NCBI GenBank assembly: GCA_049999805.1 | Contig: JBNGIO010004602.1 | Coordinates: 1 to 64,000 of the forward strand | Source: Folioceros fuciformis | Lineage: Eukaryota | Reading direction: 5' to 3' | Length of the DNA stretch: 64,000 nt | Shown: positions 7,977 to 57,383 of the stretch, piece after piece | Layout of the letters: each line of letters begins with the position of its first letter | Numbering within the stretch: the first letter of the stretch is position 1 | The notes under the pieces: generated by a model | Seen by the model: only the letters and a program-made list of their open reading frames with translations | Databases searched by the model: none | Told to the model about the DNA's origin: nothing | Position numbers and translations under genes: made by a program

Positions 7977-10355
7977 ATGGATGCCGGGAGCTTTGCAACT
8001 GACTCACGAACAGGCCAACGTCCCGGTCATCTGGCTCTCAGGAAGCTGGCAAACAAGCGGAGGGAAGCCACGAGCTACCGGTGCAGCAGCTCATGTGGCA
8101 CAAAGCCAGCCCGTACGTTTGCAAGGGAACGCTTGGTAGTTGGATCGGGCAAAGGTAGTGGCCAACATCTCATATGGCTGCAACAGAACCAGAGCTCCCC
8201 TGTAATGCTGGACTTTGGTTTCCAGAGGGGCTTGTACGTGACGGCTGATACTGTGAGCAGGCAATGTGAACAGGGGCGTGTCTGGGAGGCTGTTGAGAGC
8301 TTGGGAGTTTTAGTGGAGACGGGCTGTGTTGTGTCAACAGGTCTGGTTTACGTTGTCCTTAAGAAATGTGTAGCTGACAAGGCTCTTCATCTGGGTCGGC
8401 GGGTCCATGCTTTAACCACGAAACTGGGGTATGAAGCGGATACCTTCCTGTGCAATCACATCCTGCGAATGTATGCATCTCATGGCAGGTTACAAGAAGC
8501 CATGGATGTCTTCACCATGGTTGCCCGACCGGATGCCTTCATGTGGTCGTCCATAATATCTGCCCATGTTAAAGAGGGGAGGGACAAGCAGGGCATACGA
8601 CTGTATTGGAGCATGCGCAGCACGTCATGTGTGGAGCCAGATGGGCATGTGTTTGTGGCCGTCCTCCAGGCCTGTGCAAGGGCAGCAGACTTGAAAGCTG
8701 GACAGCAGGTGCATGCTGATGTGTTGGCCGGTGGGGTTGAGCCTGATTCGTTCGTGTGTAATTCCTTGGTGGATATGTATGCAAAGTGCGGCAGCTTGGG
8801 AGACGCTCAGAAAGTATTTGACGACACTGCTAGAAAAGATGTAGTGACATGGAATACCATGATCGCTGGATATTCCCAGCAGGGCAGGGGAAAGGAAGCC
8901 CTTGGACTGTACGATGCTATGCAAGACCAAGGCATGGCTGCACCCGATTCTGTCACGTTTGTGTCCCTCCTGCAGGCTTGTGCAAGTTTGGGCAACTCGG
9001 CGTTGGAGAAGGGGAAGCAGCTTCACGCTCAACTCAGAGAACGTGGGGATGAGGCTGATCTGATTGTGGCAAACAGTCTGGTGAACATGTATGCAAAGTG
9101 TGGCAACTTGGATGCCGCTCAAAGAGTGTTTGATGGCCTCGAGCTGAAAGATGTGGTGACTTGGAGTGCTATGATGGCAGGGTATGCCCAGCAGGGACTG
9201 GGGCAGGATGCCCTTCGTCATTACAGCTCTATGCAAGAAGAAGGCATTGTTGCACCCAATTCCATGACTTTTGTGAGCCTCCTGCAGGCATGTGCAAGCA
9301 TGGGCACCACGGCTTTGGAGAAGGGGAAGCAAATTCATGCACAAATCAGAGAAGAAGGGCTTCAGGGCAATGTATTTGTAGCCAACAGCTTAGTAACCAT
9401 GTACGCCAAGTGCGGCAGCCTAGTGGAGGCTCAGGGCTTGTTTGACGGACTGTTGAAGAAAGACGTGGTGACATGGAATGCCATGATTGCAGGATATTCC
9501 CAGGAGGGCATGGGGCAGGAAGCTCTGTGTCTTTACCGGCAGATGAGAGAAGAGGGCATTGCATCTCCCAATTCTGTGACATTGGTGTGTCTCCTTCAGG
9601 CCTGTGCGAATGTGGGAGCGTTGCCTCTGGGAAGGCAGCTCCATGTACAGGTCAAAGAGCAAGGTCTTCAAGGTGAAACACTTGTGGCCATCAGTTTGAT
9701 CAACATGTATGCGAAGTGCGGGAGCATGGTTGAGGCGCACCAGGTGTTCGAGGACTTGTCTGAAAGAGACGTTGTTGCCTGGAATGCACTAATTGCCGGG
9801 TACACCCGCCGAGGAGACTGTGAAGTTGTCTTTAACTTGGTTCAAAGGATGCAGGAGGGGGGAACAAAGCCAAACGGTATCACCTTTCTCAGTGTTCTAA
9901 CAGCATGTAGTCATGCAGGTCTAGTGGAGAAGGGGAGGGAGTCCTTTTTGGCCATGAGCAAACAATGGGGCAGCCATCCCACGGTGGACCATTACAATTG
10001 CATGGTAGATCTACTGGGTCGTGCAGGACAATTGGTCGAGGCACTGACATTGGTCAGAACAATGCCTGTCTCGCCTAATGCTGCAATTTGGCACACTCTA
10101 CTGAGTGCTTGTTGTAAGTGGGTCAACGTGGAGGTGGGATGCCATGCTTTCATGGAAGCTGAGAAACTAGACGAGCAAGACGCCTCAGCTTATGTCTTGA
10201 TGTCCAACATATACACGGGTGCCAAGATGTGGCAGCAGGCAAAAGAGATGCAGGCACGTAGGAAAGGCATGAGGGCATGGAAACAGGCAGGCCAGAGCTG
10301 GTGGACAGACATTGATGGATCGGTGTACAGTTTCTTGGTTAGCATTCCCGACTAA
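7977..10355 (+). CDS. PLS-class PPR protein 1 (about 18 repeats, E1-E2, WW-type box, DYW absent); putative organellar RNA editing factor
   Basis: 792-aa intronless ORF with P (VVTWN..I.GY), L (.TFVSLLQAC) and S (..NSLVNMYAKCG) triplets, P2-L2-S2 (CSHAGLV; HYNCMVDLLGRAG), E1/E2 (AYVLMSNIY) and terminal QAGQSWWTD..G.VYSF. Confidence 0.93.
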   Translation: MDAGSFATDSRTGQRPGHLALRKLANKRREATSYRCSSSCGTKPARTFARERLVVGSGKGSGQHLIWLQQNQSSPVMLDFGFQRGLYVTADTVSRQCEQGRVWEAVESLGVLVETGCVVSTGLVYVVLKKCVADKALHLGRRVHALTTKLGYEADTFLCNHILRMYASHGRLQEAMDVFTMVARPDAFMWSSIISAHVKEGRDKQGIRLYWSMRSTSCVEPDGHVFVAVLQACARAADLKAGQQVHADVLAGGVEPDSFVCNSLVDMYAKCGSLGDAQKVFDDTARKDVVTWNTMIAGYSQQGRGKEALGLYDAMQDQGMAAPDSVTFVSLLQACASLGNSALEKGKQLHAQLRERGDEADLIVANSLVNMYAKCGNLDAAQRVFDGLELKDVVTWSAMMAGYAQQGLGQDALRHYSSMQEEGIVAPNSMTFVSLLQACASMGTTALEKGKQIHAQIREEGLQGNVFVANSLVTMYAKCGSLVEAQGLFDGLLKKDVVTWNAMIAGYSQEGMGQEALCLYRQMREEGIASPNSVTLVCLLQACANVGALPLGRQLHVQVKEQGLQGETLVAISLINMYAKCGSMVEAHQVFEDLSERDVVAWNALIAGYTRRGDCEVVFNLVQRMQEGGTKPNGITFLSVLTACSHAGLVEKGRESFLAMSKQWGSHPTVDHYNCMVDLLGRAGQLVEALTLVRTMPVSPNAAIWHTLLSACCKWVNVEVGCHAFMEAEKLDEQDASAYVLMSNIYTGAKMWQQAKEMQARRKGMRAWKQAGQSWWTDIDGSVYSFLVSIPD

Positions 10356-10518: not shown

Positions 10519-10718
10519 GATTTGCAGACTTTGCTGGTTGCTTGTCAAAAGTGGAGAATTGTGGAGATGGGATGCCATGCTTTTGACGAAGCTCCGAAGC
10601 TGGAGCAGGCAGGCCAGAGATGCGTGCTAATGTCAAACATATACATCGGTGCTTAAATGTGTGAACAGACAGGCACAAGGCCTGAAAGCAAGCCGGCGGC
10701 CTAAGCTGGTGGACGTCA
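10519..10718 (+). pseudogene. Degenerate PPR E1-E2-WW box fragment
   Basis: LQTLLVACQKWRIVEMGCHAFDEAPKLE...VLMSNIYIGA*, followed by frameshifted KQAG/SWWT. Similar to the C-termini of the intact PPRs. Confidence 0.8.
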
Positions 10719-10787: not shown

Positions 10788-12832
10788 CTAAACTATATAA
10801 TAGTATTCATCTTGCAAAGGAGGTGCGTAGTAGCTGGACGTATGGTTCCAACGAGCTAAGGATTCTTTCACTAATTTGGATATATTAATTTCCATTTGAA
10901 TTACATTTTTTATGCAAGGAAATAAATTTTGTTGCGGAGACTATTGCGTTAACCACACATAAATAAGAGCTTCTTTGTACATATCTTCTAAATCACTTAG
11001 GTGTATTGAATCATGCTCTATGGCATTCGGTAGCCATATTCCAAGCTCCACCGAGACTCCATCGTTGTATGCCTGGGCAAAACAATGAAGAATCTTCATG
11101 GATTTGCATCTTCAACTCTGACAAACATGCTTTAGAGAGACACAACAAAATGTGTACGCATCCCTTACAGAGAGGGAATAATTTTTAATATTTTCTTCTA
11201 CGAATATTGCAATCTCCATCATATTCGTAATACTATTGTCGATTTTGTACGTGCAATTATTCATTTTAAAGTAACATAAGAATTCCTTCAACACTAAACC
11301 TAAATTTATGTTAGGAAAGTTCCCAAGATCATGGCGAGTAGCAAAAGCTTGGATATCTTGCAATGTAGGTTGCAACCTCGCATGTGTGGCGGGAGGCAAT
11401 TCTTTCTCTAAGCATTCGGTGATATAATTCATGTAGTCTTTTGTACTATGCATTGCCGTCATTACAAAACCCTTTTCAAACGAGCTGCTCCAACACTCTG
11501 CTCTTCCGGCAATTTGCTTTAATAAAGACATGTTAATTCTTTTGAATCCTTTTTCGTTAGTGACCAAAATATAATCCTATTGATATTCAAGTTCAACCCC
11601 ATACCAATAGCATCCGTTGCCACAAGAATGTTATATGTATTATTAGGGTCGTTGAATAGCGTTGCTTGTTCTATTCGAACTTGTGGTGGGAGAGCTCCAT
11701 AAATAACGCAACATTTGTAGTTAGTATTTGTTTCAATCATACGTTTCACTGCAAAAATATCTTTTTTTGAAAAGACTATGAAACAATTCCCTATTTGCAC
11801 ATGTTCTAGTGAACAAAGGGGCTCACAAACTTCTAGAGGTTTCATCCTCTCATACTGCTTGATAACAAAATCATCTCCTGTACTTTCACAAAGAGATTGA
11901 ATTACTTCAATTGAGGTTGCATCTCCACATAAATGTATCTCCTCGGATGGCAAACCTAGAAATGCTCTTGTCCATGCCCCACCTTGCTCATTGTTGCTAA
12001 TCATTTGAATTTCGTCTATGACAACCACCTCCCAATCTTGCTCTAAGCGAGCAATCTCGATAGTGCAAGAAAGATGACAAGCCATAGAATTGTCTCTATG
12101 CTCTTGACCAGTGTGCAAAATACAAGGAATTTCTTTCGCATTCATCATTTCAAACACTTCCATAGCGAGAAGGCGTAAGGGGCTGCAATAAATACCGTTG
12201 CTCGCTTGCATTAAGCTTTGCAATGCATTGTATGTTTTTCCGCTATTAGTTGGCCCACAATGGTATATTACCTTTCACTTTATCATTTTGGCTTTAGGAT
12301 ACCAGTTTTGTGGTTGTGTTAAGTTCATTGCTTCATGTAGGAAAATGATTTTTCTCTTTTCATCACTATTTGCACTTTGGTCTTTATAATATTGTATAAA
12401 GATGGAGTATAAATATTCATTGCTTGAAAGTTGGACATGCACATCAAGTTCCTTAGACTCTCGACATGAGTCGATAGAATAACACTCTTCCAATGTACCC
12501 AAGTATTTATTTAACGCCAACCATGATCTTCGAATGAACCACTTGCAAAATATCTCCCATATACAAAATGCAGATTTATATCAAAGTATCCAACTTTCCC
12601 TGCAAGCACAAACGTTCCAACCATCCCTGCAAGAACATAAACAAGGAGTTATCATAAATAGCTCAATGATTTGCACAAACACGTTTATGGTTTTATAGCC
12701 AAACCTATGACAGAAGAAGTTGTCTAAGTAACTTTGGAGGCACTCAATTTTGTAAGAAGATAATTTTTTGTGTTTTCTTGCCTTCAACTTTGCATATGCC
12801 GCCTCCTCCGGAATATATTTTAAAAATTCCAT
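10788..12832 (-). pseudogene. SUV3: Intronless AT-rich SUV3-like RNA helicase pseudogene (essentially full length)
   Basis: One frame from 12832 to 11519 with in-frame TGA at 12581 and 12275: IYHCGPTNSGKTYNAL, YCSPLRLLAMEVF, VIDEIQM, IYGALPP, ATDAIGMGLNLNI. Frameshift near 11525 to KQIAGRA, TGA at 11112, then LHCFAQAY...DLE, another frameshift, then YVWL...LVKESL. Confidence 0.9.
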
Positions 12833-13106
12833 ACGTTAAATTTCACACGTAGATGAGTGTATATCTTACAAAAAAAAGGTTTCCTCAATCGAGTTGCAAG
12901 TGTTTCTTTGATCAAGTTGAAAGTGTTTACTTAATCAAGGAAACATCTACAAATCTTGATGTAATAGCTCTACTTCCAAACGTTTAAGTTTGCAAAGGTT
13001 ACGTAGAAGAGTCCTTCTTACGATAAGAAGGACTCTTCTTTCCAACAAGAGTAACCGTAAACTCATACCTAGTTAGAAAAATAAAATGACAAATCAATCT
13101 ATCGCT

Positions 13107-13231
13107 GAAGGTCAAGGTGTGGAAGGAGGAAGAGTCAACCAACAAGAGCTTTGCGAACGTAGAATGCAGAAGGTCAAGGTGTGGAAGGAGGATGGGTCAA
13201 CCAACAAGAGCTTTGCTAACGTAGAATACAG
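13107..13231. repeat. 62-bp direct tandem duplication
   Basis: gaaggtcaaggtgtggaaggagga...aacgtagaat begins at 13107 and again at 13169. Confidence 0.9.
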
Positions 13232-13973: not shown

Positions 13974-14099
13974 CACTTCACTCGAAACATAATATATCTT
14001 ATCACCTAACAAGTTTCCTGCTGTCAATCCGACTGTCTTTCGAGTCACAACATCACAACTCCCTTACTTATAAAACAACATCGAGATGCAAGGTCGCAA

Positions 14100-14360: not shown

Positions 14361-14669
14361 CTGATCGAAACGCACCGACGTTCTCCTCTTCTCGCACTTG
14401 TATTCTCGGGTCCATCAACTTGTACGAAATTATTTTGCATAACAAGTTCACATAGACGCAACGTTATAGCAGACTTTTTAAGTCATGACATGTTACTATC
14501 AACATGTTTTAATCCCATGGATATTGTACTTTTGCTTTGGAGGTAGGTATCATATTAGCTTCGGTGAGCCATTCTTGTCAAGTAAGTAGGCACTTTATCA
14601 GTTTCCGACGGCTAGGCTTATTAAAGAAGTAGGCATTATATTGGCATCTATTGTTGGTTGCACTATACG

Positions 14670-17080
14670 TGATGGCTGATCTTGAGAGCAGGCTATGTGA
14701 ATAGGGGCATGTCTGGAAGGCTGTTGAGAGCATGGGAGTCGTGATGTGTTAGGCTGTGTTGTGCCAAAAGCTCTATCATTGTCCTTACGAAATGTGCAGC
14801 TGAGAAGACAGCCTCTTGATCCAGAATGGTGGGTCCATGCTTTCATCACAAAATTAGGGTACGAAGCATATAAGCTCCTCTACATTCACATGCTTATATT
14901 GGCATCCAAGAGCTAGGCTTGTGGAGGAAGCATGCATTATGTTGGCTTTGATGAGCTAGGCTTGTGAAGGATTATTGTGACAATATAAGACATAAGTGAC
15001 CCATGAAGAAGATATTATGACAATCATGTTGGGTTGATAGAAATCAAGGACTATTATCTAGCCTCTTTTTTCCTTTTTTTTGGTGTATTCACGCTTCAAC
15101 TAGTGGCACTATTAGTGAGGATTGTTGTTTTTTCCATGTTTTTACCCTTTCTTTTGGTACAATTGGGCATTGCTATTTGGTCTTGTTTTATTGTGTGCTT
15201 CTGCTTCCATTTGAAAGGTTTATTATAATATTACATCATTATTTACAAAAGATATTCTACTTCAACTTTGTATCAGCAAATAGGGTCTAGAGAAAGAGGG
15301 GTATGTATGCAAAGTGCAGCAGCTTGGGAGACACCCAAAAAGTATTTGATGGCACTGCTAGAAAAGATAAAGTGCGAAGGGCGAAAGGTAAGATGCTTTT
15401 CGCCTTTGCAGCTCTATGCAAGAAGAAGGCATTGTTGCACCTAATTCCATGACTTTTTGTGAGCCTCCTGCAGGCGTGCCCAAGTATGGGCACCCCGGCT
15501 TTAGAGAAGAGGAAGCAAGTTCATGCACAAATCATAGAGCCCTGCATGCGTGACGAGCTTGCCATGCCGTCATGGGTTGTGAAATAGCTTTGCATACAAA
15601 AGGCCGGTTAAGGGTGTGCGTGGAGGCGAGACAGATGGGTGCACATAAGATAGAACGGTGAAAGGTGAAAGGCAAGGTGTCCGCTCTGAACCTTGCATGT
15701 AGAGGATGGATGCTGAACCATAATTCCTAACCCTAATAAAAAATAAAAATAAATAAATAACTATGAGTGAGAGATGATCCGAACCGGTGAGGGTTTGTCC
15801 TGATTGGGACGCGTAGATGGCGCCCTACGACCAAAGAGCTAGATGTATTACTGGCAAAAGTTTGGACGTATATTGGTGCCCAAAACTTGGTGTGAAAGTC
15901 AACGTGATGGTATTGTGTATTCCATACACATGCAATCCCTCGACGGGAATCTGTGGTAGATTCTACCGTATATTCTCATATAAAATACGTATAGCAGAAA
16001 AAAAAAACTTCAAGTGTCTCGGGCGTGTCCGAAATACCGGCAGCTTGAGAGACACCCAGAAAGTGTTTGATGGCACTGCTGGAAAAGATGTAGTGCGAAG
16101 GGCGAAGGGCCGGATGCTTCTCGCCTTTACAGCTCTATGCAAAAGGAAGGCATTGTTGCACCCAATTCCATGACTTTTGGAAGCCTCTGCAGGCGGGCGC
16201 AAGTATGGGCACCCCGGCTTTGGAGAAGAGGAGGCAAGTTCTTGTCTGAAAGGGACGTTGTTGCCTGGAACGGCTGATCCTTTGAGCAGGCTATGTGAAC
16301 AGGGGTATGTCTGAGAGGGTGTTGAGAGTTTGGGAGTTCTGGTGAAGACCGGCTGTGCTGTGCCAAAAGCTCTGTCGTTGTCCTTACGAATGTGCAGCTG
16401 AGAAGGCAACCTCTTGATCGGGATCGGCGGGTCCATGCTTTCATCACGAAACTGGGGTATGAAGCGGGTACGTTCCTGTGCAATCACATGCTGCGAATGG
16501 GTGCATCTCATGGCAGGTTACAAGCAGGCATGGATGTCTTCACCATGGTTGCCCAACCGGATGCCTTCGGATGGTATGGCGAGACCGAGACATGGCTGCA
16601 CCCGATTCTGTGGCGTTCGTGTCCCTCTTCAAGGCTTGTGCAAGTGTGGGCAACCTGACGTTGGAGAAGGTGAAGCAGCTTCATGCTCAACTCAGAGAAC
16701 GTGGGGGTGAAGCTGAATCAGATGTGACTGTGGCCAACAGTCTGGTGAAAACGTATGCAAAGTGTGGCAACTTGGATGCGGCTCAAATAGTGTTTGATGC
16801 CCTTAAGCAGAAAGATGTAGTGACTTGGGGTGCTAGTTCTCTTCGTCTTCACAGCTTTCTGCAAGCAGACGGCACTGTTGCACTCAATTCCACAGTCTCT
16901 TGGTTAGCATCCCCGGCCAAGGCCTGAACTGCTTATTGCTTCAATGAGGAAGTTAGGAAGGCTATGTGCTAGCTAGATATGGGTTCGTTACCGGCTGGAC
17001 TAAAAATGGCAGGGGCTGATCTTTGTGTGCATTTAATTGTACAGACTCGTTCGTCGAAACATCTTCAGATCTGCAGGGTC
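14670..17080 (+). pseudogene. Scrambled PPR pseudogene fragments related to PPR1
   Basis: Blocks at ~14670-14890, ~15300-15540, ~16040-16270, ~16271-16570, ~16590-16890 and ~16892-17080 match separate parts of 8240-10520, with deletions and frameshifts. Confidence 0.85.
15735..15848 (-). mobile_element. tRNA-derived SINE-like / Pol III promoter element
   Basis: Minus strand has A-box-like TAGCTCTTTGG (15841-15831) and B-box-like GGTTCGGATC (15785-15776), followed by a T-rich tract. No acceptor-stem pairing, so not a true tRNA. Confidence 0.45.
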
Positions 17081-17619
17081 CCATCCTGAAGCTCGGTATC
17101 CATCCTGGACGATCTCTCGAGCAGCACAATGATTTCCTTGGGAGCAACAACCCCCGACCTTAGATGCTGCTGGGAGCAAAGCAGTTGTACAGCAAATTTT
17201 GGAAAAGTAGGATGATCTAGACTAGTGTTGGCTGTTGGTACCAGCTGTCGACATTCTGTGACACCTCCCTGAAATTCGTGACATCATGTCGTCTTTGATC
17301 AAGCAATCTTCGATTGTAGCCCATCCCACAAGGTGCTAGGATCCCCGTGTAAGCCCATTGTCGATGACCATCCACGGTGGCCCGTAACAAAGTTGTCGGT
17401 CGTCCTCGACAAAAGGCGCATGCTTTTGTAAAGGTTCGAGGTTATGGCGTGCTCTAGACACTGGGAGTTGGACACAAGCGAAGCACAGAGACTGTGTGGC
17501 AACCCGTTGTTGTTTTGCATGTGGTGATCAGGCTCTGCCGGTGGCTGTAGTCCGTATTTTCACTCTTGCGCTCTCTGAATGACCTATAGTAGGTGGATGC
17601 AAAGCGTCCTTCCCTAGAT

Positions 17620-20043
17620 ATGCAGATGGGAACCTGCAACTGGAGCGTGCCGGAAACGTGTAAGCCTCACAGGCCTGCAGGATATGCAACGGGCGTAAAC
17701 CTGATCAAGCTTTGCGAAAAAGGCCTTTTGACGGAGGCTGTGGAGGCTTTGGGAGTGCTAGTGCAGACACACGCACGTGTATCCAAATCTCAGCTTTATA
17801 GTGTCCTCAAGAGTTCTGTTGCCCGGAAGGATCTTGTCCTGTGTCGCCGTATCCATGCCCTCATGGTGCGAAAGGGGTGCGAGTCGGACACGTTCTTGTG
17901 CAACCACATCCTGAGAATGTATGCGTCTCACGGCAGGTTACAGGAAGCCATAGATGTTTTTACCATGGTTCCCAAACCAGATGCCTTCATGTGGTCTTCC
18001 TTGATTTCTGCCCATGTCAAACAAGGAAATGACAAGCAGGCCATAGAGCTGTATCATCGAATGCGGAGGTCAAGCGTGCAACCAGATGGCTACGTATTTG
18101 TGGCAGCCCTCCAGGCTTGTGCAAGGGGCGCAGACCTGGAATCTGGGCAGCAGGTGCACACTGATGTCATAGCCTGTGACGCTGAGCCTGATTTATTCGT
18201 GTGTAGTTCGTTGGTGGACATGTATGCAAAGTGTGGCAGCGTGGAAGACGCTCAGAGAGTATTTGACGGACTTGGTCACAAAGATGTGGTTACATGGAAT
18301 GCCATGATAGCAGGGTTTTCCCAGCGGGGCATGGGCGAAGAAGCCCTCAGACTCTACAGCGATATGCAAGAAGAAGGCGTGGCATCACCCGATTCTGTAA
18401 CGTTTGTGTCTCTCCTGCAGGCTTGTGCAAGCGTGGGTACCTCGGCTTTGCAGAAAGGAAGGCAGCTTCATGAACAACTTAGAGAAAGCGGACATGAAGG
18501 TGATGTGATTTTGGCCAACAGTCTCATAAACATGTACGCCAAGTGTGGCAGCCTGGAAGACGCTGAACGAGTGTTTGACGGAGTTGATCACAAGGATGTG
18601 GTGACGTGGAGTGCTATGATAGCCGCGTATGCCCAGCAGGGCATGGGGCACGAAATCCTTCGTCTCTGCAGTACTATGGAAGCCGCAAGAATTGTTGCAC
18701 TTGACTCTGCGACATTCGTTTGCCTCCTGCGGGCATGTGCATGGTTGGGCTCCCCGGCTTTGGAGAAGGGAAAGAAGCTTCATGCACAAGTCAGAGAACG
18801 AGGACATCACGCGGATGTGCCTGTAGCCAACGCGTTAGTGTACATGTATGCAAAGTGTGGTAGCTTGGAAGATGCCCAAAGGGTTTTTGACAGCATGGAT
18901 TCCCCTGATTCCCTGGCATTTGTGTGCCTCCTGCAGGCATATGCAAACTCGGGCGCCATGGCTTTGGAGAAGGGGAGACACCTACATGCACGAATCAAGC
19001 AACGAGGGCTTGAAGGCGATGCATTTCTGGCTAGCAGCCTTGTGAACGCGTATGCAAAGTGTGGCAGCTTGGAGGATGCGCAGAGGGTATTTGATGCACT
19101 TGGTGAGAAAGATGTGGTGACATGGAATGCCATGATAGCTGGGTATTGTCAGCACGGCATGGGTCAGGAAGCCCTTAATGTTTATGCTGCAATGGTTGAA
19201 GAGGTGTGTGCTCTACCTACTTCAGTGACATTCGTGTGCCTCTTGCAAGCATGTGCAGATGTGGCAGCTCTGCAGGTTGGAAAGCACCTACACGCACAGA
19301 TTCAAGAACAAGGGCTCCAAGCTGATTTGCTTGTAGCCGGCAGTCTGATAAACATGTACGGGAAGTCCGGGAGCATGGTCGAGGCACGTCAGGTGTTCGA
19401 GGCATTGCCGGCAAGAGATATCGTCGCATGGAATGCGCTGCTTGCAGGATACACTCGCCAAGGAGACAGCGCAATGGTCTTTGGCTTGGTTGAGCACATG
19501 AGGCAGGATGGCATACACCCAGATGGCATCACATTCATTTCTGTTCTGACAGTATGCAGTCATGCGGGTCTGGTGAACAAGGGCAAAGACTACTTCGAGG
19601 CTATGAGCAGACACTATGGCATCACCGCCACAGTCGACCACTACACATGCATGGTGGATCTCCTGGGTCGTGCAGGCCGATTGGACGAGGCAGTTACTCT
19701 TGTAAGGACAATGTCTGAACTGCCAAATGCTGCAGTTTGGCATACTCTATTGGGAGCTTGTAGAAAATGGAGCAATGTGGAGGTTGCTCGTGATGCTTTC
19801 GATGAAGCTCTGAAGCTAGAGAGTAGAGATGCTGCAGCATATGCGTTGATGTCAAACATATACATTGGTGCCCAGATGTGGGAGCAGGCTCAGGGGTTGC
19901 AGCTGAGGAGACTGAGCATTAGGGTACGGAAGCAGCCAGGCCAGAGCTGGTGGACAGATATGCACGGGCTGGTGCATAGTTTCCTGGTTGGCGAAGCATC
20001 CAGCACGGTTGAAAGAAACAGGACCTGGTGTTCTCCACCATGA
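17620..20043 (+). CDS. PLS-class PPR protein 2 (about 20 repeats, one P motif missing; WW box, DYW absent)
   Basis: Open frame 17593-20043, first in-frame ATG at 17620. PLS array, E1-E2, KQPGQSWWTDMHGLVHSFLVG. True N-terminus uncertain. Confidence 0.9.
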   Translation: MQMGTCNWSVPETCKPHRPAGYATGVNLIKLCEKGLLTEAVEALGVLVQTHARVSKSQLYSVLKSSVARKDLVLCRRIHALMVRKGCESDTFLCNHILRMYASHGRLQEAIDVFTMVPKPDAFMWSSLISAHVKQGNDKQAIELYHRMRRSSVQPDGYVFVAALQACARGADLESGQQVHTDVIACDAEPDLFVCSSLVDMYAKCGSVEDAQRVFDGLGHKDVVTWNAMIAGFSQRGMGEEALRLYSDMQEEGVASPDSVTFVSLLQACASVGTSALQKGRQLHEQLRESGHEGDVILANSLINMYAKCGSLEDAERVFDGVDHKDVVTWSAMIAAYAQQGMGHEILRLCSTMEAARIVALDSATFVCLLRACAWLGSPALEKGKKLHAQVRERGHHADVPVANALVYMYAKCGSLEDAQRVFDSMDSPDSLAFVCLLQAYANSGAMALEKGRHLHARIKQRGLEGDAFLASSLVNAYAKCGSLEDAQRVFDALGEKDVVTWNAMIAGYCQHGMGQEALNVYAAMVEEVCALPTSVTFVCLLQACADVAALQVGKHLHAQIQEQGLQADLLVAGSLINMYGKSGSMVEARQVFEALPARDIVAWNALLAGYTRQGDSAMVFGLVEHMRQDGIHPDGITFISVLTVCSHAGLVNKGKDYFEAMSRHYGITATVDHYTCMVDLLGRAGRLDEAVTLVRTMSELPNAAVWHTLLGACRKWSNVEVARDAFDEALKLESRDAAAYALMSNIYIGAQMWEQAQGLQLRRLSIRVRKQPGQSWWTDMHGLVHSFLVGEASSTVERNRTWCSPP

Positions 20044-20204
20044 ACGAGAACGAGGGATATAGAAGTAAAACGAGAAAGTTTGCTGCGCCAGACACGTTGC
20101 CGACATTTGACACACGTTACCCAATGAAGGGTGAGGACGATGGACAGGTGATGTGATCATTGCTGCATGAGGCCTGCCTAGTTTCAGGTGTCCTCCTGCA
20201 AGCC

Positions 20205-23200
20205 ATGCGTGTCTTGAGGTGGATAGATGTTCTGGGAAGAGCGGGCGCTCACCTGACTGGCAGGACCAAACCGTCAGGCACCAGGTGCAGCGGTTTTGCG
20301 TGCCGGTCGCCTGACAGCCAGGTGTACAAGCCAACTTGGGTGGATTCTCCGGTGGCTTCTTTGGATATCCAGATGGGTTGTGCCGTCCCTGCATCAAACT
20401 GGAGCGCACTGGAGGATGGTGACCTTGCTATGCCTGCAGGCAACGAAAGAGTTGTTACGGCTGACACCGTGAGCGAGCTATGTGGTGAGGGGCGGCTCAC
20501 GGAGGCTGTTGAGGCTTTGGGAGTTCTGGTGCAGACGGACCGTTGGATTTCTACATCTCTGGTTTACACGGTCCTGAAGAAATGTGTAGTGAACAAGGCT
20601 CTTGTTCTGGGCCGCTGTGTACATGCCTGCACGGTGAAAACAGGGTATGAATCGGATACGTTCTTGTGCAACCACGTTCTGCGAATGTACGTTGCCCATG
20701 GCAGATTACGAGAAGCGATGGATGTGTTCACCATAGTTGCGGAACCAGATGCTTTCATGTGGTCTTCCATCATTTCTGCACATGTTCATCACGGTGAAGC
20801 CAGGGAAGCCATAGAACTGTATCATCGGATGCGGAAGTCAAGTGTGAAGCCAGATGGACATGTGTTTGTGGCCGCCCTGCAAGCCTGTTCGAGGGAAGCA
20901 GACTTGCAAGCGGGCAAGCAGGTGCACGGTGATGTGCTGGCCACTGGAGTAGAGCCTGATTTGTATGTTTGTAGCTCGTTGGTGGACATGTATGCCAAGT
21001 GTGGCAGCTTGGAAGACGCCAAGCACGTGTTTGACGGACTTGGTAAGAAAACTGTGGTGACATGGAATGCTATGATAGGAGGGTGCTCTCAGCAGGGCAT
21101 GTCCCAGGAAGCGTTTGATCTTTACAACGCCATGCGAGAAGAAGGCATGGCTGTGCCAGATTCTGTAACATTTGCGTGCCTCCTGCAAGCATGTGCAAAT
21201 CTGGGCCGCCCAGCCATAGGGAAAGGGCGGCAGCTTCACGCGCGCATAAGAGAATGTGGATATGTTGACGATGTGGTTGTAGCCAACAGTTTGGTGAACA
21301 TGTACGCAAAGTGTGGTAGCTTGGAAGATGCTCAACGAGTGTTCGACGGACTCGGGGAAAAAAGTGTGGTGACATGGAATGCTATGATAGGAGGGTATTC
21401 CCTGCAAGGCATGGGACTGGAAGCCCTTCGCCTTTACAGTGCTATGGAAGAGGAAGGCTTGGTTGAAGATTCCGTGACATATGTGATACTTCTGCGAGCA
21501 TGTACAAGTTTCAGCACCCCGTCTTTGGAGATGGGAAAGCGACTTCATGCACGAATTAGAGAAGCAGGAGTAAGCGCTGACGAGTTCGTAGCTAGCAGTT
21601 TGGTACACATGTATGCTGAGTGTGGGAGCCTAGAAGATGCTCGGGACGTGTTTGATGCACTCGGTACGAAAAATGTTGTGACATGGAGTTCCATGATAGC
21701 AGGATATTCCCGCCAGGGCATGGGCCAGGAAGCCCTGAATCTTTACAGGGCTATGCAAGAAGACGGCCTGGCAGCACCGGATTCTGTGACGTTTGTGTCC
21801 CTTCTACAGGCGTGTGTCTGTGTAGGCGCCTCGGCCTTGGAGATGGGGAAACACATTCATACACAAATCAGAAAACGAGAGCTTCAGACTCATTTGTTCG
21901 TGGCCAACAGCTTGGTGAACATGTATGCAAAGTGTGGCAGCTTGGAAGATGCTCAAAGCGTTTTTGACGGACTTCCCACAAAGGATGTGGTGACTTGGAA
22001 TGCCGTTATAGGAGGCTATTCCCAGCAGGGCATGGGCCGAGAAGCACTTCGTCTCTACGACAAAATGCGGAAAGAAGGCACAGTTACACCTGATGCTGTG
22101 ACATTTGTGTGTATGTTTCAGGCATGTGCAAGTATGGGCACCCCAGCTTTGGAGAAGGGCAAAGATCTTCATGCACAGATTAGAGAACAAGGGCTTCAGT
22201 GGGATGTGTCTGTAGCCAATAGCGTGGTAAACATGTATGCCAAGTGCGGAAGCCTGGATTGTGCTCAGGCCGTGTTTGACAGACTTCCTCAGAAAGATGT
22301 GGTGACGTGGAATGCCCTTATTGCAGGATACTCTCAGCAGGGGATGGGGCAAGATGCCCTCGGTCTTTACAGTGCTATGCAACGGGAAAGCATGGCCACA
22401 CCCAATGCTTTGACATTTGTGTCTCTCCTGCAGTCATGTGCAAATCTTGCAGCTCTACATCTAGGAAGGCAGCTTCACGTCCAGATTAAGCAGCAGGGCC
22501 TCCAGGCTGATGCGCTTGTAGCTGGCAGTTTAATGGACATGTATGGAAAGTGTGGTAGCATGGTTGATGCACAGCAAGTCTTTGGAGCCTTACCTCAAAG
22601 AGACACGGTGGCCTGGAATGCACTGATAGCGGGCCACAGTCGTCTAGGAGACAGCGAAGCGGTCTTCGATCTGCTTCGGAGAATGAGAGAAAATTGTGTA
22701 CAGCCAGACGGCATCACATTTCTTCATGTGCTCACCGTATGCAGTCATGCAGGTCTGGTTACTCAGGGCCGAGAGTACTTTGAGTCTATGAGCATTAACT
22801 ATGGCATCGCTCCCACCTCGGACCATTACACTTGTATGGTGGATCTCCTGGGTCGTGCAGGCCGACTGGACGAGGCACTAGCTTTAGGGACGATTGTGCC
22901 TGGAATGCACGATTGCGCAGTTTGGCACACACTTCTGGCTGCATGTCAAAAGTGGAACAATGTGGAGATGGGACGCCATGCTTTTGACCAAGCCGTGAAG
23001 CTAGACCAGGCAGATGCTGCAGCATACGTGTTGATGTCAAACATCTACACCGGTGCCCAGATGTGGGAACAGGCACAGGAGATGCAGACCCAGAGAAAAA
23101 GAATCGGAGCATGGAAGCAAGCGGGCCAAAGCTGGTGGACAGACGCAGAGGGACTGGTGCACAGTTTCACCGTTGGGCACACGATGAGAAGACCGCTCAA

Positions 23201-23285
23201 AGAAAAGGGCGGGGTAGTAGAAAGTGCCCAGCCAAATATCACCTTGTCCAAACAAAAAGCAGCCTCCGAAGATCGCCTCCTCTAA
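20205..23285 (+). CDS. PLS-class PPR protein 3 (about 24 repeats; WW box, DYW absent)
   Basis: Open frame 20160-23285, first ATG at 20205 (MRVLRW...). Six internal PLS triplets, P2L2S2, E1-E2, KQAGQSWWTDAEGLVHSFTVG, then an unrelated tail. Confidence 0.93.
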   Translation: MRVLRWIDVLGRAGAHLTGRTKPSGTRCSGFACRSPDSQVYKPTWVDSPVASLDIQMGCAVPASNWSALEDGDLAMPAGNERVVTADTVSELCGEGRLTEAVEALGVLVQTDRWISTSLVYTVLKKCVVNKALVLGRCVHACTVKTGYESDTFLCNHVLRMYVAHGRLREAMDVFTIVAEPDAFMWSSIISAHVHHGEAREAIELYHRMRKSSVKPDGHVFVAALQACSREADLQAGKQVHGDVLATGVEPDLYVCSSLVDMYAKCGSLEDAKHVFDGLGKKTVVTWNAMIGGCSQQGMSQEAFDLYNAMREEGMAVPDSVTFACLLQACANLGRPAIGKGRQLHARIRECGYVDDVVVANSLVNMYAKCGSLEDAQRVFDGLGEKSVVTWNAMIGGYSLQGMGLEALRLYSAMEEEGLVEDSVTYVILLRACTSFSTPSLEMGKRLHARIREAGVSADEFVASSLVHMYAECGSLEDARDVFDALGTKNVVTWSSMIAGYSRQGMGQEALNLYRAMQEDGLAAPDSVTFVSLLQACVCVGASALEMGKHIHTQIRKRELQTHLFVANSLVNMYAKCGSLEDAQSVFDGLPTKDVVTWNAVIGGYSQQGMGREALRLYDKMRKEGTVTPDAVTFVCMFQACASMGTPALEKGKDLHAQIREQGLQWDVSVANSVVNMYAKCGSLDCAQAVFDRLPQKDVVTWNALIAGYSQQGMGQDALGLYSAMQRESMATPNALTFVSLLQSCANLAALHLGRQLHVQIKQQGLQADALVAGSLMDMYGKCGSMVDAQQVFGALPQRDTVAWNALIAGHSRLGDSEAVFDLLRRMRENCVQPDGITFLHVLTVCSHAGLVTQGREYFESMSINYGIAPTSDHYTCMVDLLGRAGRLDEALALGTIVPGMHDCAVWHTLLAACQKWNNVEMGRHAFDQAVKLDQADAAAYVLMSNIYTGAQMWEQAQEMQTQRKRIGAWKQAGQSWWTDAEGLVHSFTVGHTMRRPLKEKGGVVESAQPNITLSKQKAASEDRLL

Positions 23286-23760
23286 AGATGGACGTAGTCC
23301 TGAATGTTCTGCGAAATGGAAGTCCTCGATCTGGCAGAAAGGTCACGAAGAATCATGATGTCTCCTTGAAAACAAGCGCCACTGGTTGCAAGATTTTGCA
23401 AGTCCGACCCAATGGAACAGGCACAGGAGATGCAGACCCAGAGAAAAAGAATCGGAGCATGGAAGCAAGCGGGCCAAAGCTGGTGGACAGACGCAGAGGG
23501 ACTGTCGCACAGTTTCGCCGTTGGGCACACGATGAGAAGACCGCTCAAAGAAAAGGGCGGGGTAGTAGAAAGTGCCCAGCCAAATATCACCGTGTCCAAA
23601 CAAAAAGCAGCCTCCGAAGATCGCCTCCTCTAAAGATGGACGTAGTCCTGAATGTTCTGCGAAATGGAAGTCCTCGATCTGGCAGAAAGGACACGAAGAA
23701 TCATGATGTCTCCTTCAAACGAGCGCCACTGGTTGCAAGATTTTGCAAGTCCGACCCAAT
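23066..23760. repeat. 348-bp near-identical tandem duplication of the PPR3 3' end
   Basis: aggcacaggagatgcagacc at 23071 and 23419. Both copies end ...aagtccgacccaat. They differ by a few SNPs and one indel. Confidence 0.95.
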
Positions 23761-53867: not shown

Positions 53868-54156
53868 TTATACTTACCCACCATGTAGATGTTCTTTGCA
53901 TTATAAGAAGGAATAAATTCATTGAATTCTCTCCCATGCCCCATGATTTGGACCCATTTATACTTACCCACCATGTAGATGTTCTTTGNNNNNNNNNNNN
54001 NNNNNNNNNNNNNNNNNNNNNNNNNNNNNNNNNNNNNNNNNNNNNNNNNNNNNNNNNNNNNNNNNNNNNNNNNNNNNNNNNNNNNNNNGACCCATTTATA
54101 CTTACCCACCATGTAGATGCCCTTTGCATTATAAGAAGGAATAAATTCATTTGAAT
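53831..54156. repeat. 90-bp tandem repeat (at least 3 units, N gap inside) overlapping the kinase start
   Basis: attgaattctctcccatgccccatgatttggaccc at 53831 and 53921; the unit resumes after the gap at 54089. Confidence 0.9.
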
Positions 54157-54746: not shown

Positions 54747-57383
54747 TTAATTAATAACCAAGTTCACTCCGGCGCAAAAAGTATGTACAAGGCCATCCAT
54801 GTCTGTCCACCAGCTTTGGCCAGGCTGCTTCCTGGCCCTCATTCGCTTTCTCGTAGCCTGCATCTCCTGGGCTTGCTCCCACATATGGGCACTGGTGTAT
54901 ATGTTGGACATCAAAACGTAGGATGCAGCATGTTTCCTGTCTAGCTTCACTGCTTCATTGAAAGCATAGCGTCCTATCTCCACATTGCTCCACTTTTGAC
55001 AGGCACCCAACAGAGTGTCCCAAACTGCAGCATCAGGAGGCACTGACATTCTTTGTATTAATGCTAGAGCCTCATCCAGGTGCCCTGCACGGCCCAGGAT
55101 ATCCACCATGCAAGTGTAATGGTCTACGGTGGGAGTGATGCCATGCTGCTTCTTGCTCATAGCCTCGAACACCTGTTGGCCTTTGCTCACAAGGCCAGCA
55201 TGACTGCATACTGTTAGCACACTGAGAAACGTGATGTCGTCTGGCTGGGCTCCATCGTCTCCCATTTTGCCGAACAAGTTGAAGACTTGTTCACTGTCTC
55301 CTTGCCGAGTGTAGCCTGCTATTAGTGCGTTCCAAGCAGAAACATTTCGTTTGGGCAATGCGTCAAACACCTGCCGTGCATCAACCATGCTACCGCACTT
55401 CCCGAACATGTTTATCAAACTGCAGGCTACGAGCATGTCTGTTTGTAGCCCTTCTTCTTTGATCTGAGCGTGGAGATGCCTTCCGAGAGGCAAAGCTGCC
55501 ACGTTTGCGCATGCCTGTAGGAGAGACACGAATGTCACTGAATCGGGTGCAGCCATGCCTTCTTCTTGCATATCGTTGTATAGATTGAGGGCTTCCTGCC
55601 CCATGCCCTGCTGGGAGCACCCTGCTATCATAGCGTTCCATGTCACCACATCTTTGTGAGCAAGTCCGTTGAACACGGCCTTGGCATCCTCCAGGCTCGA
55701 GCACTTTGCATACATGCTTACCAAGCTGTTGGCTACGAAAACATCACTCTCCAGCCGTCGTTCTCTGATTTGTGCATGAAGCTGCTGTCCATCCTTCAAA
55801 CCCAGGGTGCCCAGACTTGCACAAGCCTGCAGAAGGGAGACAAATGTCATAGAATCGGGTGCAACCATGTCTTCTTGCATGGCGCTGTACAGACGAAGGG
55901 CTTCCTCTCCCTTGCCCTGCTGCGAATACCCTGCTATCATGGCATTCCATGTCACGACATCTCTCTTTCCAAGACTGTCAAACACTCCCTCAGCTTCTTC
56001 CAAGCTGCCACACTTCGCATACATGCTGACCAAACTGTTGGCTACAAACACATCAGCTTGAATCCCTTGTTCTCTAATTTGTGAGTGAATCTGCCTCCCC
56101 TTCTCCAAAGCTGGGCTGCCCACACTTGCGCATGCCTGCAGGAGGGATAAAAAGGTCACAGAATCGGGAATAGCTACCCCTTCCTCTTCCATAGCCGTGT
56201 ACAGATCAAGAGCTTCCAGCCCCTTCCCCTGTTGAGAATATCCTGCCACCATAGCACTCCATGTCACCACATTCTTCGACCTAAGTCCATCAAAAACTCT
56301 CCGAGCCTCCTGCAGGCTGCCACACTTCACATACATGTTCAACAAGCTGCTGGCCACATACACATCAGTATCAAGCCGTTGTTCTTCAATCCGTGCGTGC
56401 AGCTCCCTCCCAAGCTGTAACGCTGCCGCGTTTGCACATGCCTGCAAAAGGCATACAAATGTCACAGACGTAGGTACCTCCGTGCCCTCTTCCGTCATGG
56501 CACTGTAAAGACGAAGCGCTTCTTGGCCCAGGCCCTGCTGGGAATGCCCTGCTATCATCGCATTCCATGTCACCGCATCCTTCCGACTGAGTCCATTGAA
56601 CACCCTCCGAGCGTCTTCCAAGCTACCACACTTTGCATACATGTCCACCAAGGAACTAGAGACAAACAAATCAGGCTCCTCGCCAGTGGCCATTACATCA
56701 GCGTGCACCTGCTGCCCAGCTTCCAAGTCTGCTGCCTTTGCACAAGCCTGAAGGGCAGCCACAAAGACATGCCCATCTGGCTTCACACTTGACCCACGCA
56801 TCTCACGATACAGCTGTATAGCCTGCTTGTCTCGTCCATGTTTAACGTGTGCAGAAATGATGGAAGACCACATGAAGACATCTGGTTCTGCAACCATGGT
56901 GAACACATCCATCGCTTCCCGTAACCTGTCGTGCGAGGCATACATCCTCAGCATGTGGTTGCACAGGAACGTATCCGCCTCATACCCGACTTTCACCGTG
57001 AAAGCATGCACCCGGCGACCCAGAACCAGATCCCTCACCAAACATCTCCTGAGAACTGTATAGACATCAGTCTTGGACACACTAGCCTGTGTCTGCACCA
57101 GAACTCCCAAACCCTCAACAGCCTCAGCAACATTCCCCTGGTGACAAAGCTCTCTGACATCTTCAGTCGTCACGCCCCTGTAACATCCAGCTCCTTCTCC
57201 AGTCACACATCCTGGTGCACGTACCGGATTCCTCGCAAAGCTGGCGTACGTTGAATTCAAATTAGCGGGACTTCTTCCTACAACGCCTGTCAAACCACCA
57301 ATTTGCAGAGTACCAGAAAACTGGCCCCCCCACAGCTCCTGTTGCCCTTTGCCAGACTCGATTGCGAAGTTCCAAGCAGCCAT
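54747..57383 (-). CDS. PLS-class PPR protein 4 (about 21 repeats; WW box, DYW absent)
   Basis: Open frame 57440-54747, first in-frame ATG at 57383. Five internal PLS triplets, P2L2S2, E1-E2, KQPGQSWWTDMDGLVHTFCAG then VNLVIN*. Confidence 0.93.
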   Translation of the reverse strand: MAAWNFAIESGKGQQELWGGQFSGTLQIGGLTGVVGRSPANLNSTYASFARNPVRAPGCVTGEGAGCYRGVTTEDVRELCHQGNVAEAVEGLGVLVQTQASVSKTDVYTVLRRCLVRDLVLGRRVHAFTVKVGYEADTFLCNHMLRMYASHDRLREAMDVFTMVAEPDVFMWSSIISAHVKHGRDKQAIQLYREMRGSSVKPDGHVFVAALQACAKAADLEAGQQVHADVMATGEEPDLFVSSSLVDMYAKCGSLEDARRVFNGLSRKDAVTWNAMIAGHSQQGLGQEALRLYSAMTEEGTEVPTSVTFVCLLQACANAAALQLGRELHARIEEQRLDTDVYVASSLLNMYVKCGSLQEARRVFDGLRSKNVVTWSAMVAGYSQQGKGLEALDLYTAMEEEGVAIPDSVTFLSLLQACASVGSPALEKGRQIHSQIREQGIQADVFVANSLVSMYAKCGSLEEAEGVFDSLGKRDVVTWNAMIAGYSQQGKGEEALRLYSAMQEDMVAPDSMTFVSLLQACASLGTLGLKDGQQLHAQIRERRLESDVFVANSLVSMYAKCSSLEDAKAVFNGLAHKDVVTWNAMIAGCSQQGMGQEALNLYNDMQEEGMAAPDSVTFVSLLQACANVAALPLGRHLHAQIKEEGLQTDMLVACSLINMFGKCGSMVDARQVFDALPKRNVSAWNALIAGYTRQGDSEQVFNLFGKMGDDGAQPDDITFLSVLTVCSHAGLVSKGQQVFEAMSKKQHGITPTVDHYTCMVDILGRAGHLDEALALIQRMSVPPDAAVWDTLLGACQKWSNVEIGRYAFNEAVKLDRKHAASYVLMSNIYTSAHMWEQAQEMQATRKRMRARKQPGQSWWTDMDGLVHTFCAGVNLVIN

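What the first reader, a model, noticed from the sequence alone, without database searches (positions are those of the whole stretch)
7977..57383. Four DYW:WW-lineage PPR editing factors have each lost the deaminase right after the WW box, apparently by different events: a candidate trans-DYW adaptor system
Seen: all four intact PPRs run (P/A)GQSWWTDxxGxV(H/Y)xFx(V/A)(G/S) and then switch to mutually unrelated tails of 3-35 aa, with no HxE or CxxC. The junction differs in each: frameshifting deletions with DYW remnants behind PPR1 and PPR2, unrelated ORF-like DNA behind PPR3, and an AT-rich island behind PPR4. Known: WW is a DYW subtype of seed-free plants, and angiosperm E+ proteins keep the PG box and recruit DYW2/DYW1-type deaminases in trans. 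Inference: independent breakage at the same boundary with intact arrays suggests selection to keep the box as a docking surface, i.e. a convergent E+-like system with a shared deaminase donor.
Basis: partly seen in the sequence, partly recalled or inferred. Interest (0 to 1): 0.8.

Follow-up and report, generated by a model that had tools for sequence, protein, structure and literature searches.

The report
Deaminase-less PPR gene family cluster
Four neighbouring plant genes for RNA-binding PPR proteins all stop just before the enzyme part that their relatives carry, most likely because one common ancestor lost it long ago, so they are ordinary members of a known helper-dependent class and not four separate accidents.

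Summary
The four intact PLS-type PPR ORFs are real. Each ends ...(P/A)GQSWWTDxxGxV(H/Y)xFxx(G/S) followed by an unrelated tail of 3, 16, 35 or 6 aa. No HxE/CxxC deaminase core is coded anywhere in the 64 kb. By definition they are E+-class PPR proteins (PLS array, E1, E2, PG/WW box, no catalytic DYW core) derived from the DYW:WW lineage.

The claim of four different events is not supported.
- The four form one clade (100/95 support) whose sister proteins are also truncated, so one ancestral loss is enough.
- The paralogues are old (pairwise dS 0.87-0.96). Unconstrained 3' sequence would be unalignable whatever the number of events.
- The shared edge therefore marks where purifying selection stops: the boundary between beta-strand 2 and the gating domain of the deaminase fold.
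- DYW remnants behind PPR2 are not detectable. Behind PPR1 there is only a faint trace (p = 0.02, 1 of 4 tests).

The genes are under selection (dN/dS 0.21-0.26 for the array, 0.11-0.24 for the box). Use of a deaminase supplied in trans is plausible by analogy with Arabidopsis E+/DYW1-like pairs but untested; no donor was found. Enrichment of E+ PPRs in hornworts is already in print. Verdict: new members of a known kind, modest interest.

The parts
7977..10355 (+). PPR1: intact PLS-PPR ORF, 792 aa, E+ type, tail IPD*
10287..10343 (+). PPR1 WW box AGQSWWTDIDGSVYSFLVS (beta-strands 1-2 of the deaminase fold); last conserved codon ends at 10343
   Evidence: structural assignment from PMC7611903 passages
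10525..10671 (+). Dead E1-E2 fragment of a family member (in-frame stop; a degenerate SWWT box follows in another frame)
14660..16918 (+). Dead 5' PPR fragments of the same family (stops and frameshifts; 139-nt direct repeat 15319/16040)
17593..20043 (+). PPR2: intact PLS-PPR ORF (first ATG 17620), E+ type, 16-aa tail
19936..19992 (+). PPR2 WW box PGQSWWTDMHGLVHSFLVG
20160..23285 (+). PPR3: intact PLS-PPR ORF (first ATG 20205), E+ type, 35-aa tail; ORF opens 117 nt after the PPR2 stop
23121..23177 (+). PPR3 WW box AGQSWWTDAEGLVHSFTVG
23066..23760 (+). Recent 348-bp tandem duplication (2.0 copies, 97%) of the PPR3 3' end: E2 end, WW box, tail, stop and about 110 nt beyond; second box at 23472
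54747..57440 (-). PPR4: intact PLS-PPR ORF (first ATG 57383), E+ type, 6-aa tail, abutted by an AT-rich stretch
54768..54824 (-). PPR4 WW box PGQSWWTDMDGLVHTFCAG

Best explanation
The four genes are old paralogues of one E+-class PLS PPR lineage inside the DYW:WW clade.

The catalytic part of the DYW deaminase (gating domain, HxE, CxxC, DYW end) was lost once, before the four copies arose and possibly earlier, because their sister proteins are truncated too. I put about 0.75 on a single loss.

[quoted passage not shown] Everything 3' of the last Gly/Ser drifts freely. That drift is why the tails and flanks now look unrelated and why homology stops at the same residue in all four. I put about 0.9 on selection maintaining these genes.

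Each protein probably binds its own organellar RNA site through its P and S motifs, whose specificity pairs differ between copies. If they are editing factors, the deaminase must come from a separate DYW protein. By analogy with Arabidopsis E+ PPRs, whose DYW1-like partners lack the PG box, the WW box would complete or dock the partner's deaminase fold. I put about 0.4-0.45 on this step.

Shown: anatomy, common descent among the sequences available, selection. Inferred: RNA binding, organellar role, trans deaminase.
For: Anatomy.

One clade: the window genes group at 100/95, in 100% of 200 bootstrap trees, inside a WW clade at 100/99. Their sister (96/81) is P0033 + P0103, both truncated 17 and 21 aa after the G.

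Public truncated members of the WW clade: 6 of 6 go on with recognisable D/N-x-x-(H/Y/R/N) after the G and end 17-79 aa later. Independent losses elsewhere therefore do not share one end point.

Age and selection: pairwise dS 0.87-0.96 and dN/dS 0.21-0.26 over 665-801 codons. E1-E2-box dN/dS 0.15-0.30. Box dN/dS 0.11-0.24 for the 3 pairs with a computable dS. Without selection, P(no stop) is below 1e-4 at only 0.1 substitutions per site. Dead family fragments in the same locus carry stops and frameshifts.

No cis DYW exon:
- No deaminase signature in six frames of the whole window, which covers 40-54 kb downstream of each gene.
- The PPR3 ORF opens 117 nt after the PPR2 stop.
- The junction codons share no GT (GTT AGC|ATT, GTT GGC|GAA, GTT GGG|CAC, GCC GGA|GTG).
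- Intact relatives are single continuous ORFs through this point.
- Contigs of runs X1 and X2 lie colinear on 9494-10656 and 19933-20531. A contig of run X3, from another sample and study, lies colinear on 9494-10571 with 0 differences, bridging the PPR1 junction and stop.

The break sits at a structural boundary: the PG box is beta-strands 1-2, and the gating-domain insertion starts at the His of GDxxHP (PMC7611903 passages).

S-motif 5th/last pairs are ND, SD, SN or NS in 15 of 20 motifs found and differ between copies. The code table itself is recalled, not from a call.
Against: No donor was found. The 120 listed short relatives of a PG-box-less DYW:WW query are mostly ORF pieces that start at an internal Met or at a contig end.

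The genome is not held. Unseen intact DYW:WW paralogues of this species could nest inside the window clade and split the single loss into several. The bootstrap had not fully settled (correlation 0.986).

A faint +1-frame trace of the first gating-helix residues behind PPR1 (p 0.02, 1 of 4 tests), and PPR3's tail against the sister tails (p 0.03, 8 tests uncorrected), would fit later, separate erosion of a short ancestral tail. So part of 'different events' may hold for the last few codons.

Pairwise dN/dS cannot by itself separate time before and after the loss. Whether run X3 is RNA is only a guess of the tool. Expression, targeting and editing were not tested.
Confidence: 0.55

Rival explanations
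1. One reading: four independent truncations that each hit the same boundary, kept there by selection for the box as a docking surface (convergent E+-like adaptors).
For: The tails and 300-nt flanks share no detectable homology (z at most 2.6, none above the null maximum). A faint frameshifted remnant lies behind PPR1 only. An AT-rich stretch abuts PPR4 directly. Loss of the deaminase happened repeatedly elsewhere in the WW clade (truncated label needs 4 changes).
Against: The four are one clade with truncated sisters. At dS about 0.9, flanks would be unalignable after a single event as well, so the flank test cannot support it. Selection for the box sets only a 5' limit for breaks. It does not explain four breaks at the same codon, and 6 of 6 public truncated WW-clade relatives end 17-79 aa further on.
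Confidence: 0.1
2. Functional RNA-binding proteins that do not take part in editing (transcript stabilisation, processing, splicing or translation). The box is kept only because it caps or stabilises the E2 helix pair or touches RNA, and no deaminase is recruited.
For: Purifying selection is shown, editing is not. No donor was found. The lysine just before the PG box, conserved here as KQ(P/A)G in 4 of 4, is proposed to contact the RNA backbone or sugar (PMC7611903 passages).
Against: The E1-E2-PG box module is otherwise known from editing factors. In Arabidopsis nearly all E+-associated sites depend on DYW2 (PMC7076377 passages and abstract start). The box residues stay as conserved as in intact DYW:WW relatives.
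Confidence: 0.25
3. The deaminase is still made in cis: an intron follows the box and a DYW exon lies elsewhere, or the assembly is wrong at the junctions.
For: The break falls at the same residue in all four, as a conserved intron would. Only PPR4 has GT right after the Gly codon.
Against: No deaminase signature in any frame of the 64 kb, and no profile match in the flanks. There is no room behind PPR2. The other three genes have no GT right after the last box codon. Intact relatives have no intron here. Contigs of three runs from two samples are colinear across the PPR1 junction, and contigs of X1 and X2 across the PPR2 junction.
Confidence: 0.03
4. Decaying pseudogenes that merely have not yet acquired stops.
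For: They sit in a cluster with dead fragments and partial duplications. PPR2 lacks one P motif and has a very short N-terminus before the array.
Against: dN/dS is 0.21-0.26. P(open ORF) is below 1e-4 at d = 0.1 without selection. Indels between the copies are in frame and span whole motifs.
Confidence: 0.04

Closest known systems
Angiosperm E+ subgroup PLS PPR editing factors (e.g. CRR4, CLB19, SLO2) with DYW1-like donors (DYW1, DYW2, MEF8, MEF8S, DYW3, DYW4)
   Same: PLS array + E1 + E2 + the N-terminal piece of the DYW domain, without HxE/CxxC. In Arabidopsis the donors have very few PPRs and no PG box, the complement of what the E+ proteins keep (PMC7076377 passages).
   Different: The stub here is minimal: only beta-strands 1-2, 19 aa from P/A-G to G. 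It is of the WW type, not the PG type. The lineage is a seed-free plant (probably a hornwort; inferred). No donor, MORF-type helper or interaction is known here. Any likeness in mechanism is inferred.
DYW:WW domain (consensus used for RECODE-WW)
   Same: The same SWW box. The window proteins fall in one clade (100/99) with intact PGQSWWTD...DYW proteins P0013, P0022, P0078 and P0119. The paper describes DYW:WW as a subclade found in hornworts, 137 aa, active in C-to-U editing (PMC12684383 passages).
   Different: The window proteins lack about 115 aa of that domain, including all catalytic residues.
E+ subgroup reported as 'exclusively enriched in hornworts' in a 364-genome survey
   Same: The same class by domain content, and probably the same lineage (PMC13386178 passages).
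   Different: That paper gives a census. Its editosome model for hornworts lists PPR and ORRM proteins only. I saw no statement on a trans deaminase, on the break position or on the WW type. Its Fig. S12 and tables could not be read (supplements closed).
Unnamed truncated WW proteins P0033 and P0103 (public assemblies)
   Same: Sister group of the window clade (96/81). Same box, no deaminase core.
   Different: They keep 17 and 21 aa past the Gly that still resemble the start of the gating domain (D-x-x-x-x-E-S-x-G...). The window genes have lost that too. Their organisms are not known to me.

Membership tests
PLS-class PPR proteins, E+ subgroup | Array of P, L and S type pentatricopeptide repeats | tested here: met
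   Pfam PPR_2, PPR, PPR_1 and PPR_3 with E 1e-38 to 1e-113 in 4 of 4. P/L/S triplet periodicity is visible in the alignment. S motifs were parsed.
PLS-class PPR proteins, E+ subgroup | E1 and E2 motifs after the array | tested here: met
   Pfam E_motif PF20431: E 9.9e-09, 3.3e-10, 5e-12 and 1.1e-13, all above the curated cut-off of 27.3 bits.
PLS-class PPR proteins, E+ subgroup | N-terminal piece of the DYW domain (PG box) present, catalytic core absent | tested here: met
   The box (P/A)GQSWWTD..G.V(H/Y).F..(G/S) is present in 4 of 4. There is no PF14432 hit and no HxE/CxxC.
PLS-class PPR proteins, E+ subgroup | Acts as site-recognition factor for organellar C-to-U editing with a deaminase supplied in trans | not testable with these tools
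   No genome, no organelle editome, no assay. The donor search was inconclusive.
DYW:WW subclade of PPR-DYW editing factors | WW variant of the PG box and phylogenetic placement with WW-type proteins | tested here: met
   SWW is present in 4 of 4. The WW clade has 100/99 support and includes 4 intact DYW:WW proteins.
DYW:WW subclade of PPR-DYW editing factors | Complete DYW deaminase domain of about 137 aa with HxE, CxxC and a DYW-type end | tested here: not met
   Absent from the ORFs and from the flanks. In the tblastn rows printed, none lay behind a PPR stop. They descend from this lineage but are not DYW proteins.
DYW1-like trans deaminases | Few or no PPRs, no PG box, complete catalytic DYW core | tested here: not met
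   No deaminase signature in any frame of the window; the printed tblastn rows showed none either. Outside the window this could not be tested.

The most novel reading that the evidence does not exclude
A seed-free plant lineage (probably hornworts) evolved its own split editosome. A family of E+ PPRs is pared down to just the two N-terminal beta-strands of the DYW:WW fold, and these complete, in trans, a shared PG-box-less DYW:WW deaminase. This would be an origin of 'recognition and catalysis on separate proteins' independent of seed plants, and a natural two-piece version of the WW editor now used as a tool.
Probability: 0.3. Interest if true: 0.6.

Novelty: new member of a known kind. Interest (0 to 1): 0.3.

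Why it matters
Separating RNA recognition from catalysis is usually described as a feature of angiosperm editosomes, with one-protein factors typical of early-diverging plants (PMC10482289 passages). This is a selection-maintained E+ family in the WW lineage, cut exactly at the beta-2 | gating-domain boundary. It gives a clean natural test of whether the two-strand stub is enough to recruit or complete a deaminase. It could also guide split versions of the DYW:WW editing tool.

As it stands, the locus adds members to a class whose abundance in hornworts has already been reported. It also corrects the idea that the shared edge needs four separate events.

Tried and rejected
- Whole-genome census and donor search in the same genome: no genome is held.

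- RNA evidence: no RNA holder is listed. X3 is only guessed to be RNA. X3 gave no cover over 10902-16004, where X1 and X2 had cover. I do not count this as evidence either way. Only contigs, not raw reads, were available, so transcript ends and levels cannot be read. 40 further joints and 250 further loose ends were not shown.

- Stand-alone search with the C-terminal 208 aa among proteins of 114-364 aa: 173 hits with E <= 1e-10 among 350 candidates, best identity 52%. This species' own fragments are not in that collection, so no family census came from it.

- Donor search with the 117 aa that follow the Gly in P0078: 149 hits with E <= 1e-15 among 162 candidates, 120 listed. Of the four closest (66-81% identity), two still carry the WW box, and two start at a Met 28 or 15 residues before HSE. 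Nothing is recognisable as a true PG-box-less gene.

- Flank DNA homology: nothing except PPR3 against its own tandem copy (score 453). The test is uninformative at dS 0.9.

- Gating-domain N-terminus profiles: PPR1 p 0.049 and PPR3 p 0.03, out of 8 tests and uncorrected. Not significant after correction. My impression by eye that the PPR2 +1 frame (KHPARLKETG) matches PPR3's tail did not survive testing (p 0.24 and 0.26).

- Bacterial promoter/terminator scan of the PPR2-PPR3 spacer: not meaningful for a eukaryote.

- AT-rich stretches as transposon insertions: no long terminal or inverted repeats were found. The one behind PPR1 holds a Suv3-type helicase fragment and the one behind PPR4 a protein kinase ORF.

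- Papers: Gerke et al. 2020 is not held. Gutmann et al. 2020 I know only from reference lists and recall. Ichinose et al. 2022 (PMC9478123) had no passage on a WW class for my terms.

- I did not run complex prediction, structure prediction or the search of protein representatives. A split-domain pair would tend to pass by likeness to solved DYW structures, and no same-species donor was at hand.
Full report
WHAT IS THERE

The window holds four long open PPR reading frames: PPR1 at 7977-10355 (+), PPR2 at 17593-20043 (+), PPR3 at 20160-23285 (+) and PPR4 at 54747-57440 (-). Their first ATGs are at 7977, 17620, 20205 and 57383.

Pfam finds strong PPR matches and the E motif (E 1e-8 to 1e-13) in all four, and the DYW deaminase family PF14432 in none. 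All four end with (P/A)GQSWWTDxxGxV(H/Y)xFxx(G/S). They then run into tails of 3, 16, 35 and 6 residues that do not align with one another.

A motif scan of all six frames of the 64 kb found no HxE...CxxC, no CxxCH..K, no HSEK-type motif and no terminal DYW. It found five GQSWW boxes: the four genes and one extra copy at 23472.

- DYW remnants. A profile built from 64 intact DYW tails scores at best -1.4 bits on any frame of the 456-nt flanks. 300 random window segments give a 95th percentile of 0.3 bits and a maximum of 3.7 bits.
- In the tblastn rows that I printed (two full queries of seven and part of a third), the best E was 0.13 and no hit lay behind a PPR stop.
- Two finer tests looked at the first 40 codons after the break. 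Only PPR1 gave a nominal signal: +1 frame PQTQTAYCFKEAFREDMR against a real PQTEQLYSFVETLSKRMR, p 0.02, one of four tests. PPR3's tail weakly matched the tails of its sister proteins (p 0.03, eight tests, uncorrected). PPR2 gave nothing (p 0.24-0.47).
- The 'ORF-like DNA' behind PPR3 is its own tail followed by a 348-bp tandem duplication of its own 3' end (23066-23760, 2.0 copies, 97% matches).
- The locus also holds dead pieces of the same family with stops and frameshifts, at 10525-10671 and 14660-16918.
- The AT-rich stretch behind PPR4 is real (GC 0.34-0.36 against 0.52 in the gene).

IS THE DEAMINASE MADE IN CIS AFTER ALL?

A break at one residue in four genes is what a conserved intron would give, so I tested that first. 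The evidence is against it.

- No deaminase signature occurs in any frame of the window, which covers 40 to 54 kb downstream of each gene.
- The PPR3 frame opens 117 nt after the PPR2 stop.
- The junction codons are GTT AGC|ATT, GTT GGC|GAA, GTT GGG|CAC and GCC GGA|GTG. Only PPR4 has a GT directly after the last box codon.
- Intact relatives are single continuous ORFs through this point.
- Contigs of two DNA runs lie colinear on 9494-10656 and 19933-20531. A contig of a third run, from another sample and study, lies colinear on 9494-10571 with no differences, across the PPR1 junction and stop. The tool only guesses that this third run is RNA. If it is, the PPR1 transcript is unspliced there.

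ONE EVENT OR FOUR?

The four proteins are 65-69% identical over the array and differ by in-frame indels of whole motifs. Pairwise dS is 0.87-0.96 for all six pairs, so the copies are old and about equally distant.

At that depth, unconstrained DNA cannot be aligned. The 300-nt flanks indeed show no homology for any pair (z at most 2.6, none above the null maximum), except PPR3 and its own tandem copy. Unrelated tails are therefore expected after a single ancestral loss as well, and cannot count as evidence for separate events.

I built a maximum-likelihood tree of the C-terminal module (209 columns) from 79 sequences: the four window genes and 75 public relatives that had a recognisable box.

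- The four window genes form one clade with 100/95 support, present in 100% of 200 bootstrap trees.
- That clade sits inside a WW clade (100/99) containing 4 intact DYW:WW proteins and 6 other truncated ones.
- The sister of the window clade (96/81) is P0033 + P0103, both truncated (quick version). The bootstrap had not fully settled (correlation 0.986).
- All 6 public truncated members of the WW clade still read D/N-x-x-(H/Y/R/N) after the Gly and stop 17 to 79 residues later. Independent losses elsewhere therefore do not share one end point.

The simplest account is one loss before the four copies arose. The ancestor may have kept a short, already useless tail like the sisters', and that tail has since eroded differently in each copy.

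The common edge then marks where selection ends, not where four breaks fell. The caveat is sampling: the genome is not held, and this species' other paralogues are absent from the protein collections (best identity 52%). Intact paralogues nested in the clade cannot be excluded.

ARE THE GENES ALIVE?

- dN/dS is 0.21-0.26 over 665-801 aligned codons. It is 0.15-0.30 over E1-E2-box, and 0.11-0.24 over the 21 box codons for the three pairs where dS could be computed.
- From the genes' own codon content, about 4% of single-base changes make a stop. An unselected ORF of this length would stay open with P below 1e-4 at only 0.1 substitutions per site, and below 1e-19 at 0.45.
- Dead family fragments in the same locus show what decay looks like here.
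- If the loss is ancestral, as the tree suggests, all of this selection acted on the truncated form.

WHERE THE EDGE LIES IN THE FOLD

[quoted passage not shown] A roughly 55-residue gating domain is inserted after strand 2, starting at the His of the GDxxHP motif (passages of PMC7611903). The window proteins end at the Gly just before that Asp. They keep exactly strands 1-2 and nothing else.

The same paper notes two further points. DYW1 and DYW2 have a poorly conserved start of the gating domain, which E+ partners may restore. A lysine just before the PG box matters for editing; here it is conserved as KQ(P/A)G in 4 of 4.

HOW IT MOST LIKELY WORKS

Each protein should bind a specific organellar RNA. 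The 5th/last residue pairs of the S motifs are ND, SD, SN or NS in 15 of 20 motifs found, and they differ between copies. The code table is recalled, not from a call.

In Arabidopsis, E+ PPRs carry E1, E2 and E+ and lack the DYW core. They depend on DYW1-like proteins, which have very few PPRs and no PG box (passages of PMC7076377). By analogy, the WW stub would dock or complete a separate DYW:WW core. This step is inference only. My search for short PG-box-less DYW:WW proteins returned ORF pieces, not genes.

A non-editing RNA-binding role is the main rival.

COMPARISON WITH WHAT IS KNOWN, AND NOVELTY

- DYW:WW is described as a subclade found in hornworts, 137 aa, active in C-to-U editing (passages of PMC12684383).
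- The window is therefore probably from a hornwort. This is inferred, not verified.
- The class and its abundance are in print. In the passages and listings I saw (searches; passages) I found no proposal of a trans deaminase for hornwort E+ PPRs. The usual view places the separation of recognition and catalysis in angiosperms (PMC10482289 passages). Gerke et al. 2020 and Gutmann et al. 2020, which may treat this, were not available.

VERDICT

These are new members of a known kind (E+ PPRs of the WW lineage). They have an unusually clean cut at a structural boundary and clear evidence of selection. The 'four different events' reading is not supported. The trans-deaminase idea remains an open, testable analogy.

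Noticed in passing
window 52728-53867 (-), with 53821-54151: An intronless 379-aa Ser/Thr protein kinase ORF (Pkinase, E 5.4e-62) lies in a very AT-rich stretch (GC about 0.34-0.36) directly behind PPR4. Its 5' end sits in 90-bp tandem repeats that re-encode the N-terminus (MGPNHGAWERIQ...) around a 100-N assembly gap at 53989-54088. The Atlas look-up gave only generic eukaryotic kinase clusters.
   Followed up: partly
window 11112-12835 (-): The AT-rich stretch behind PPR1 (GC 0.36-0.39) carries pieces of a Suv3-type RNA helicase gene (DEXQc_Suv3, E 1.2e-59, plus Helicase_C) split over several frames. Contigs of DNA runs X1 and X2 differ from the window at many places between 10762 and 13217, so this stretch looks polymorphic or repeated.
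   Followed up: partly
window 14660-16918 (+): Dead 5' fragments of the same PPR family, with in-frame stops and frameshifts and a 139-nt direct repeat (15319 and 16040, 89%). A contig of run X3 (753 nt) lies on 16150-16902, so this dead piece may also be represented in that run.
   Followed up: partly
window 19959 and other PPR positions (loose ends and joints): Many contigs of runs X1-X3 share words with these genes up to the SWWTD box and then run on differently; for example, the reads go on with other letters after 19959. There are also many 'joints' between PPR1, PPR2 and PPR3. The organism therefore holds many more paralogues with the same box, and these could not be collected here.
   Followed up: no
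window 23731-24446 (-): A 1927-nt contig of run X3 with much higher depth (278) than its neighbours ends here, just downstream of the PPR3 duplication. The long ORF nearby (24696-25532, -) has no Pfam match.
   Followed up: no
window 31133-32524 (+), 32979-34514 (-), 35340-36644 (-), 40113-44012 (-): Large low-complexity, Ser/Glu/Lys-rich ORFs. The first three have no Pfam family at E <= 0.001. The 1299-aa one spans a 10-N gap at 42138-42147 with a duplicated peptide on either side, and was not scanned.
   Followed up: partly
window 17593-17620 and alignment: PPR2 has almost no sequence before its first PPR-like helix pair (first ATG 17620) and lacks one P motif through an in-frame deletion. 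It may lack a targeting peptide or have an upstream exon. A contig of run X3 lies on 17044-17414.
   Followed up: no
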